Shown here piece after piece: positions 29,681 to 30,540 of a stretch of DNA of 64,000 bases (positions within the stretch are counted from its first letter, which is position 1; each line of letters opens with the position of its first letter). This stretch comes from Escherichia coli. Its GTDB lineage: Bacteria > Pseudomonadota > Gammaproteobacteria > Enterobacterales > Enterobacteriaceae. Made by a program: the position numbers and the translations under genes. Location of the stretch: assembly GCF_050320075.1 (NCBI RefSeq), contig NZ_CP190018.1. One strand, written 5' to 3'. The notes beneath the pieces are model-generated. The model saw only the letters and a program-made list of their open reading frames with translations, was not told the DNA's origin and made no database searches.

Positions 29681-30097
<417 letters not shown>

Positions 30098-30142
30098 AAT
30101 TTCGACTGTCTCTCGCATGTCATTAACCTTTTTAATTGGCGA

Positions 30143-30319
30143 TTAACTCAAACCGAGTTGTTTCAGAATGGCTTTACGCAATGGTTCTTTAATCTCTTCG
30201 CTGGGGTGACGCGGCATGACACTGCGCCTCCCGTGAAACCTGAGTTTTAAATGGTTGCTGCCATTCGCTACATCGACGCCCTGAGATTCGAGCCAACGTC
30301 TGAACTCGCTTTGTTTCAC
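30143..30319 (-). CDS. hicA: HicA mRNA-interferase toxin (58 aa), apparent GTG start
   Basis: Translation (M)KQSEFRRWLESQGVDVANGSNHLKLRFHGRRSVMPRHPSEEIKEPLRKAILKQLGLS; GGGAGG Shine-Dalgarno 4 nt upstream; not in the ORF track (too short). Confidence 0.7.
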   Translation of the reverse strand: MKQSEFRRWLESQGVDVANGSNHLKLRFHGRRSVMPRHPSEEIKEPLRKAILKQLGLS

Positions 30320-30540
30320 ATCGCCTCCCTGCCGCTGAGTATATCAACAAAGTAAACATTAGTGTTTACCTCCGTGTGTAATTTGCTCGAAAATAGCACT
30401 AAATCGCCGCAACGGCAGAATGCAATGCAAAATCAGGAAGGAAGATTCCATAATTTCTTTGCGCTAATTTGCAAAACTGAATAATAACCTCAAGAAACGA
30501 TCGGCATCATAGCGGCAAAAGGTAAGAAAAAGGTGGCAGG

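What the first reader, a model, noticed from the sequence alone, without database searches (positions are those of the whole stretch)
30143..30319. hicA appears to start with GTG
The 58-aa HicA toxin frame has no in-frame ATG at its 5' end; translation as KQSEFRRW requires a GTG start, which is preceded by a strong GGGAGG Shine-Dalgarno at 4-nt spacing. A weak start codon on the toxin gene of a toxin-antitoxin pair would help keep toxin translation below antitoxin levels.
Basis: seen in the sequence. Interest (0 to 1): 0.25.

Follow-up and report, generated by a model that had tools for sequence, protein, structure and literature searches.

The report
E. coli hicA toxin GTG start
The E. coli HicA toxin gene does begin with GTG behind a strong ribosome-binding site, but this is already in the reference annotation and the literature; the one addition here is that related hicA genes keep the same arrangement.

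Summary
On the minus strand hicA runs 30319..30143 (58 aa). Its first codon is GTG (30319..30317), preceded by GGGAGG (30329..30324) and a 4-nt spacer, CGAT. An in-frame TGA lies 27 nt upstream with no start codon in between, and the first in-frame ATG is Met35. It is already known: K-12 MG1655 b4532 and RefSeq annotate this GTG, the leader is identical to K-12, the 58-aa protein has a solved structure (6HPB), and a 2022 NAR paper lists hicA among "atGTG-starting" genes. The interpretation (a weak start keeps toxin below antitoxin) is partly supported. For: 65 of 68 distinct relatives of at least 60% identity keep GTG, 64 have GGAGG, nearly all with a 4-5 nt spacer, and hicB uses ATG. The start-codon G changed once on the tree, against 3-7 changes at comparable synonymous sites. 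No E. coli genome matched the ATG variant exactly. Published reporters show GUG is weak at this spacing. Against: the documented control is two promoters, one giving a transcript truncated at the hicA ribosome-binding site. Two of three calculators also predict more initiation at hicA than at hicB. Low interest.

The parts
30143..30319 (-). hicA coding sequence (58 aa plus stop), HicA mRNA-interferase toxin
   Evidence: ORF list. Pfam PF07927, 33.2 bits against a cut-off of 27. RefSeq CDS has identical coordinates. 56 of 58 residues match PDB 6HPB chain A.
30317..30319 (-). GTG start codon of hicA
   Evidence: Only canonical start between the upstream in-frame stop and conserved codon 2. K-12 b4532 starts at the same base. 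GTG at the aligned position in 65 of 68 distinct relatives.
30324..30329 (-). Shine-Dalgarno sequence GGGAGG
   Evidence: Read. GGAGG is present in 64 of 68 distinct relatives. Listed as GGAGG, aligned spacing DtoStart 12, in PMC9841429 Table 2.
30320..30323 (-). 4-nt spacer CGAT between the SD and GTG
   Evidence: In relatives the spacer from the upstream-most GGAGG is 4 nt (36 of 64) or 5 nt (27 of 64).
30316..30321 (-). Out-of-frame ATG-TGA 'start-stop' overlapping the GTG (ATGTGA)
   Evidence: The ATG at -2 is found only in the E. coli sequence among 65 distinct leaders. PMC9841429 classes hicA as atGTG-starting with no predicted ambiguity.
30344..30346 (-). Upstream in-frame TGA that closes the hicA frame 27 nt before the GTG
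   Evidence: upstop 27, no alternative starts.
30338..30346 (-). Extended -10-like element TGaTATACT, the probable HicB-repressed promoter P2. The expected transcript start is about 30332..30330, at the 5' edge of the SD.
   Evidence: Sequence reading plus inference. It agrees with the published statement that the autoregulated promoter's transcript is truncated at the hicA ribosome-binding site (PMC7167474). The simple sigma-70 scan did not call it. The transcript start was not verified here.
30352..30369 (.). Perfect palindrome GTAAACA-N4-TGTTTAC, the probable HicB operator (hicO)
   Evidence: the repeat finder I1. Its position over the -35 region of the putative P2 is inferred. An operator at P2 is described in PMC11594946.
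29681..30097 (-). hicB antitoxin CDS as annotated (138 aa, ATG start, N-terminus MRYPV)
   Evidence: RefSeq and K-12 coordinates. Pfam HicB_lk_antitox plus HTH_3. The MRYPV N-terminus is conserved across relatives.
30116..30118 (-). Alternative upstream in-frame ATG that would give a 145-aa HicB
   Evidence: PDB 6U0I uses the long form and 6HPB/6HPC the 138-aa form.

Best explanation
This is the chromosomal hicAB toxin-antitoxin operon of E. coli. HicA translation starts at the GUG at 30319. The 30S subunit is placed there by the strong GGGAGG Shine-Dalgarno sequence 4 nt upstream. That spacing puts the GUG, not the overlapping out-of-frame AUG two bases further 5', in the P site. The start site itself is shown, by annotation, conservation and the solved 58-aa protein. 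The following is inferred: GUG combined with a short 4-5 nt spacer is an inefficient initiation site despite the strong SD, so it limits how much toxin each full-length (P1) transcript yields. This works on top of the documented main control. A second, HicB-repressed promoter lies just upstream (probably TGaTATACT at 30346..30338, with the palindromic operator at 30369..30352). Its transcript starts at the edge of the SD and therefore makes HicB only. The GTG + GGAGG + short-spacer arrangement is conserved across the related, mostly prophage-borne hicA genes, which suggests it is kept by selection rather than by accident.
For: Start site:
- GTG is the only canonical start between the in-frame stop and conserved codon 2.
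- RefSeq and K-12 annotate the same CDS, and the leader is identical to K-12.
- PDB 6HPB chain A is the 58-aa protein starting MKQSEF.

Choice of GUG over AUG:
- PMC9841429 lists hicA as atGTG-starting, SD GGAGG, DtoStart 12, no predicted ambiguity.
- Its reporters with a 2-3 nt spacer before the AUG (DtoStart 10/12 and 11/13) gave activity only from the GUG.

Weak initiation:
- The same paper reports low GUG efficiency at short spacers, and cites an abundance of 0.021 ppm for HicA.

Conservation:
- The aligned start is GTG in 52, ATG in 9 and TTG in 1 of 62 distinct homologous loci.
- Within the clade of at least 60% identity, 65 of 68 are GTG, with 1 parsimony change against 3-7 (mean 5.2) at ten A/G two-fold synonymous sites. 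Median nucleotide divergence is 0.29.
- GGAGG is present in 64 of 68, with a 4 or 5 nt spacer in 63 of those 64.
- 4,253 E. coli genomes carry the site and none matches the ATG variant exactly.
- hicB starts with ATG in the same loci.

P2 transcript:
- It is truncated at the hicA RBS and makes HicB only (PMC7167474, PMC8138530, PMC11594946, PMC5535158).
Against: - There is no direct measurement of initiation at this site, either here or in the papers I could read. I could not obtain Turnbull & Gerdes 2017 or Jorgensen 2009.
- On the P1 transcript, 2 of 3 initiation-rate calculators predict more initiation at hicA than at hicB (PMC5535158). The GTG alone therefore does not put toxin below antitoxin.
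- hicB has no evident SD.
- The conservation statistic is modest. A rough Poisson estimate of 1 or fewer changes given a mean of 5.2 is about 0.03. Codons 2, 3 and 5 near the start are themselves slow (5, 3 and 3 changes). The relatives come mostly from one source (viral contigs) and are not independent.
- In more distant plasmid homologs (about 50% identity) ATG is as common as GTG/TTG: 6 against 4.
- The P2 -10 element and transcript start are my reading of the sequence and were not verified.
Confidence: 0.7

Rival explanations
1. The GTG is the true start but has no regulatory meaning. It is one of the roughly 14% of bacterial genes that start with GUG, inherited with the module. The toxin:antitoxin balance is set entirely by the two promoters, HicB autoregulation and protein stability.
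For: About 14% of annotated prokaryotic starts are GUG (PMC9841429). The published regulatory model needs only P1 and P2. Calculators still predict hicA above hicB on the P1 transcript. Distant homologs use ATG freely. The related sequences share ancestry, so 65 of 68 overstates independence.
Against: The G is retained through up to 45% nucleotide divergence, while all ten comparable A/G synonymous sites changed 3-7 times. It co-occurs with an equally conserved GGAGG and a 4-5 nt spacer even though the surrounding leader differs. No E. coli genome matches the ATG variant exactly.
Confidence: 0.25
2. Ribosomes first engage the out-of-frame AUG of the AUGUGA motif, terminate at once at UGA, and reinitiate on the GUG (termination-reinitiation). 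Alternatively the AUG acts as a decoy. Either way the start-stop, not the GUG as such, sets HicA output.
For: The sequence reads cgATGTGA. PMC9841429 shows that AUGUGA/GUGUGA sites can work by RF2-dependent termination-reinitiation, and that an AUGUG context can lower GUG use.
Against: The AUG lies only 2 nt from the SD (DtoStart 10). At that spacing the published reporters gave activity from the GUG only, and the authors scored hicA as not ambiguous. The ATG at -2 is unique to E. coli among 65 distinct leaders. An ATG in that frame within 45 nt occurs in only 24 of 65. It therefore cannot explain the clade-wide pattern.
Confidence: 0.04
3. The annotated start is wrong, and the functional product starts at the only in-frame ATG (Met35, 30217..30215). 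That ATG is itself preceded by a second GGGAGGCG at 9-nt spacing.
For: An internal GGGAGGCG (30232..30225) lies 9 nt upstream of the Met35 ATG.
Against: Residues 2-34 are conserved as protein with synonymous variation. The published catalytic His23 (PMC8138530) lies upstream of Met35. The solved structure contains residues 1-58. Pfam aligns residues 5-57. The internal SD-like motif is present in only 2 of 68 relatives.
Confidence: 0.01

Closest known systems
E. coli K-12 hicA (b4532, formerly yncN) in the hicAB type II toxin-antitoxin operon
   Same: Same gene and same locus (rlhA-yncJ-hicA-hicB-ydcR). The leader, SD, GTG and first 23 codons are base-for-base identical. CDS length and start are the same.
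   Different: Six nucleotide differences within hicA. Two change the protein (C40S, D41E) relative to K-12 and 6HPB. There is no difference in the feature under study.
'atGTG-starting genes' of E. coli (PMC9841429, Table 2: 18 genes including lacI, ruvA, secF, hicA)
   Same: The annotated start is the 3' GTG of an ATGTG motif, and an SD places the GTG closer to the optimum than the ATG. hicA is listed there explicitly (GGAGG, DtoStart 12, no predicted ambiguity).
   Different: hicA was only catalogued and not tested experimentally. Its spacing (12) is shorter than the 13-14 optimum the paper reports.
AUGUGA/GUGUGA start-stop termination-reinitiation sites (narQ, PMC9841429)
   Same: The motif is the same: start codon, overlapping GUG, and A at position 4 creating UGA.
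   Different: In narQ the SD spacing (14/16) favours the 5' codon, so reinitiation matters. In hicA the spacing (10/12) favours the 3' GUG directly.
Prophage- and plasmid-borne hicAB modules (for example Cronobacter phage ENT39118, Arsenophonus and Aeromonas plasmids, IMG/VR contigs L015-L094)
   Same: 58-aa HicA at 63-86% identity, GTG start, GGAGG with a 4-5 nt spacer, and hicB downstream starting with ATG (MRYPV).
   Different: Most carry a GC-rich hairpin immediately after the hicA stop, which the E. coli chromosomal locus lacks. None has the ATGTG context. Their upstream leaders differ.
Other reverse-order type II modules (mqsRA, higBA, rnlAB), which need extra means to make excess antitoxin
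   Same: The toxin gene is first, and additional promoters supply antitoxin (PMC7167474).
   Different: In hicAB the extra promoter is upstream and yields a transcript truncated at the toxin RBS, rather than lying inside the toxin gene.

Membership tests
HicA toxin family (Pfam PF07927) | Sequence match to the HicA_toxin profile above the curated threshold | tested here: met
   33.2 bits against a cut-off of 27, E 5.5e-8, residues 5-57 on profile positions 3-58.
HicA toxin family (Pfam PF07927) | Catalytic histidine (His23 in E. coli HicA) | tested here: met
   Residue 23 of the translated ORF is H (..NGSNH23LKL..). His23 is named as the known catalytic residue in PMC8138530. His at codon 23 is invariant in 68 relatives.
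HicA toxin family (Pfam PF07927) | mRNA-interferase (RNase) activity and growth inhibition | not testable with these tools
   Inferred from 56 of 58 residues matching the characterised K-12 protein.
hicAB type II toxin-antitoxin operon (reverse order) | Toxin gene immediately upstream of a HicB antitoxin with a DNA-binding domain | tested here: met
   The downstream ORF matches HicB_lk_antitox (PF15919) and HTH_3 (PF01381). It is annotated hicB in RefSeq and K-12.
hicAB type II toxin-antitoxin operon (reverse order) | Two promoters: P1 (CRP-S/Sxy) giving HicA and HicB, and P2 (HicB-repressed) giving HicB only | tested here: inconclusive
   The leader is identical to K-12, where this was shown (PMC11594946, PMC7167474). 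A palindrome and an extended -10-like element sit where P2/hicO should be. However, the simple promoter scan did not call them, and I could not place a CRP-S site (best 6-7 of 10 matches). Transcript starts were not verified.
atGTG-starting genes (PMC9841429) | Annotated GTG start embedded in ATGTG, with an SD that places the GTG nearer the optimal spacing than the ATG | tested here: met
   cgATGTG with GGGAGG 4 nt from the GTG and 2 nt from the ATG. Listed in Table 2 of the paper.
Start-stop termination-reinitiation sites (AUGUGA) | Motif AUGUGA at the initiation site | tested here: met
   ATGTGA at 30321..30316.
Start-stop termination-reinitiation sites (AUGUGA) | Initiation at the 5' AUG and RF2-dependent reinitiation at the GUG | not testable with these tools
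   Published spacing rules argue against AUG use at DtoStart 10. The ATG at -2 is not conserved in relatives.

The most novel reading that the evidence does not exclude
The combination of GTG start, strong GGAGG and a short 4-5 nt spacer is a selectively maintained translational throttle for this HicA clade. It binds ribosomes well but starts poorly, and so offsets the toxin-first gene order. In the prophage relatives it would also offset an internal hairpin or terminator that should raise hicA mRNA relative to hicB mRNA. I did not find this clade-wide conservation stated in the papers I could read.
Probability: 0.35. Interest if true: 0.3.

Novelty: already known. Interest (0 to 1): 0.12.

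Why it matters
For the genome scan, this is a correct reading of a well-annotated gene, not a discovery. For toxin-antitoxin biology it matters slightly. In toxin-first operons the cell must still make more antitoxin than toxin, and a conserved weak-start arrangement on the toxin would be one more layer alongside the known second promoter. It also has practical uses. Small GTG-start toxin ORFs are easily missed by annotators: the Cronobacter phage ENT39118 homolog is unannotated. Anyone cloning hicA for expression or counter-selection also needs the true start.

Tried and rejected
- I could not obtain the two primary papers, Turnbull & Gerdes 2017 and Jorgensen 2009. The P1/P2 details therefore rest on reviews.
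- A simple sigma-70 scan found no promoter upstream of hicA. It found only one weak hit inside the hicA-hicB junction, and no terminator.
- A naive scan for a CRP-S site (TGCGA-N6-TCGCA) gave nothing convincing, best 6-7 of 10.
- RNA folding of the long leader, the P2-type 5' end and the local start region gave energies no different from shuffles (z -1.6, +0.5, +0.9). I rejected SD sequestration by structure as an explanation.
- A uORF or start-stop ending at the overlapping TGA was rejected as a general feature, since an in-frame ATG is present in only 24 of 65 leaders.
- An internal start at Met35 with its own GGGAGG was rejected: it is not conserved (2 of 68) and would lack His23.
- I chose not to spend the expensive genome contigs or metagenome scans, or the protein-database searches, on an already-annotated feature.
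- I did not survey start codons of the other E. coli toxins.

Full report
**What is there**

The window is E. coli chromosome. On the minus strand the genes run rlhA (ydcP), yncJ (opposite strand), hicA, hicB, ydcR. The finding's interval 30143..30319 is exactly the hicA ORF: 58 aa, stop TAA at 30145..30143. The protein matches Pfam HicA_toxin above the curated threshold. The next ORF matches HicB_lk_antitox plus an HTH domain.

**Check of the observation**

I read the minus strand directly.
- The first codon is GTG at 30319..30317.
- GGGAGG lies at 30329..30324, and the spacer CGAT at 30323..30320.
- The nearest upstream in-frame stop is TGA at 30346..30344. The eight codons in between (tat act cag cgg cag gga ggc gat) include no ATG, GTG or TTG.
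- The first in-frame ATG is Met35 (30217..30215).

So there was no reading or coordinate error. An out-of-frame ATG (30321..30319) overlaps the GTG and is followed immediately by TGA.

**Is the GTG the real start?**

- RefSeq annotates a CDS with identical ends in a 100%-identical strain.
- K-12 MG1655 b4532 begins at the same base. The 190 nt upstream and the first 23 codons are identical between the window and K-12.
- The 58-aa protein starting MKQSEF has a solved structure, 6HPB chain A. It matches the window's protein at 56 of 58 residues; the differences are C40S and D41E.
- In 68 distinct relatives, residues 2, 3, 5, 6, 8, 9 and 10 are conserved as amino acids while their third codon positions vary. 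Translation must therefore begin at or before codon 2, and the GTG is the only start available.
- The published catalytic His23 (PMC8138530) lies upstream of Met35. This rules out Met35 as the start of an active toxin.

**Already known**

Besides the annotations, PMC9841429 (NAR 2022) searched the K-12 genome for starts embedded in ATGTG or GTGTG. Its Table 2 lists hicA among 18 "atGTG-starting genes", with SD GGAGG, aligned spacing DtoStart 12, PaxDb abundance 0.021 ppm and no predicted ambiguity.

**How the start site most likely works**

The same paper gives rules from luciferase and GFP reporters.
- With 2-3 nt between SD and AUG (DtoStart 10/12 or 11/13), only the 3' GUG is used. hicA is 10/12.
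- GUG depends more on spacer length than AUG does, and short spacers give low initiation.
- GUG matches AUG only from DtoStart 14 upward.

By inference, the hicA site binds ribosomes through a strong SD, selects the GUG rather than the AUG, and initiates inefficiently. RNA folding of the leader in long and short forms gave nothing beyond shuffled controls. I therefore do not invoke structure.

**The documented regulation**

Reviews of Turnbull & Gerdes 2017 describe two promoters.
- P1 depends on CRP-S/Sxy and gives a transcript that makes both proteins.
- P2 is repressed by HicB and derepressed by excess HicA. [quoted passage not shown]

The sequence fits this account. A perfect palindrome GTAAACA-N4-TGTTTAC lies at 30369..30352. 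An extended -10-like TGaTATACT lies at 30346..30338. Together they would start transcription at about 30332..30330, the 5' edge of GGGAGG. That placement is my inference. The simple promoter scan did not call it, and I could not locate the CRP-S site.

I collected 12 plasmid loci and 80 viral or prophage contig loci that encode HicA relatives. The search patterns were blind to the start codon, or biased toward ATG if anything.

- *Start codon.* At the codon aligned with the E. coli GTG, 62 distinct loci gave GTG 52, ATG 9 and TTG 1. In the ungapped clade of at least 60% identity, 65 of 68 distinct sequences have GTG. On a neighbour-joining tree the G changed once. The ten comparable two-fold A/G synonymous sites in conserved Lys, Gln and Glu codons changed 3-7 times (mean 5.2), and four-fold sites changed about 12 times. 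Median nucleotide divergence is 0.29 and the maximum 0.45.
- *SD and spacer.* GGAGG is present in 64 of 68. The spacer from the upstream-most GGAGG is 4 nt in 36 and 5 nt in 27.
- *E. coli population.* 4,253 of 5,426 complete genomes carry the 71-nt start region. 3,832 are identical, and none matches the GTG-to-ATG variant exactly.
- *hicB.* In the same loci hicB starts with ATG at a conserved MRYPV N-terminus but has no obvious SD.

This supports a maintained GTG + SD + short-spacer design, but the statistics are modest. A rough Poisson estimate is P about 0.03. Nearby codons are also slow, and the sequences share ancestry. Distant plasmid homologs at about 50% identity use ATG as often as GTG/TTG (6 against 4).

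**Evidence against the simple form of the interpretation**

Deter et al. (PMC5535158) found that on the P1 transcript two of three initiation-rate calculators predict hicA above hicB. Only with the P2 transcript start does the RBS Calculator flip. The GTG alone therefore does not put toxin below antitoxin. It can only be one layer beneath the promoter switch.

**Rivals**

1. Neutral GTG with no regulatory role. This remains plausible, at about 0.25.
2. AUG-UGA start-stop with reinitiation or a decoy effect. This is unlikely. The spacing disfavours the AUG, and the ATG at -2 is unique to E. coli among 65 leaders. An ATG in that frame within 45 nt occurs in only 24 of 65.
3. Internal start at Met35 behind a second GGGAGGCG (30232..30225). 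I rejected this as the main product. The motif occurs in 2 of 68 relatives, and the product would lack His23.

**Novelty and score**

The feature is already known and ordinary: about 14% of bacterial genes start with GUG (PMC9841429). I did not see this stated in the papers available to me. Interest is 0.12.

Noticed in passing
window 30097..30118 (minus strand): The hicB start is treated inconsistently. The longest ORF starts at ATG 30118 (145 aa, MRETVEIMRYPV...), but RefSeq and K-12 annotate ATG 30097 (138 aa). PDB 6HPB/6HPC use 138 aa and 6U0I uses the 145-aa form. The N-terminus MRYPV is conserved across about 60 relatives, which favours 30097. Only the two relatives most like E. coli (L046, L049) share an upstream in-frame ATG (MRDFEKIMRYPV).
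   Followed up: partly
L015-L094, L003, L004: the 47-50 nt after the hicA stop; compare window 30098..30142: Most prophage and plasmid relatives carry a conserved GC-rich hairpin directly after the hicA stop (taaCAAACCAGCCCttcgGGGCTGGTtactcgc). The E. coli chromosomal spacer has none. It resembles in concept the internal 'noncanonical terminator' (G/C hairpin plus UUU) reported for IncI2 plasmid hicAB, which raises the toxin:antitoxin mRNA ratio (PMC11878559). Whether it terminates transcription in these relatives was not tested.
   Followed up: partly
window 30189..30359 (minus strand); SD-like GGAGGT at 30373..30368: A 56-aa ORF in another frame starts at an ATG inside the operator palindrome, 8 nt after a GGAGGT, and overlaps most of hicA. 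In many relatives an ATG in a similar motif (cATGttcaaca, position -23) opens a short uORF (for example MFNRMEEW*) whose TGA overlaps the hicA GTG. In E. coli the frame differs. This is probably a by-product of the operator sequence. Its coding potential was not assessed.
   Followed up: partly
window 30225..30232 and 30215..30217 (minus strand): [quoted passage not shown] That is a textbook SD-ATG geometry for a 24-aa C-terminal peptide. The SD-like motif is present in only 2 of 68 relatives, so it is probably chance.
   Followed up: yes
E. coli genome collection: 5,415 of 5,426 complete genomes match some of the 961-bp hicAB region, but only about 4,250 cover most of it or carry the hicA start region. 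Roughly 1,170 genomes therefore appear to lack hicA or have it disrupted while keeping the flanks.
   Followed up: no
phage records HQ201307.1 / NC_019934.1 (Cronobacter phage ENT39118) 24008..24178; NC_005069.1 (Yersinia phage PY54) 40370..40549: HicA homologs (70% and 55% identity) lie in stretches with no annotated feature. This illustrates that small toxin ORFs are missed by annotation. The start codons of these particular loci were not read.
   Followed up: no
window 30410..30419 with 30328..30337 (minus strand): In the minimum-energy fold of a long leader, UCUGCCGUUG pairs with CAGCGGCAGG. This takes in the first two G of the SD. The fold is not significantly better than shuffles (z -1.6), and the P1 transcript start is unknown to me.
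   Followed up: partly
window 30143..30319: This strain's HicA differs from K-12 and 6HPB at two adjacent residues (C40S, D41E). There are also four synonymous changes. Relatives have S, G or A at residue 40, so Cys40 looks like the K-12-lineage oddity.
   Followed up: partly
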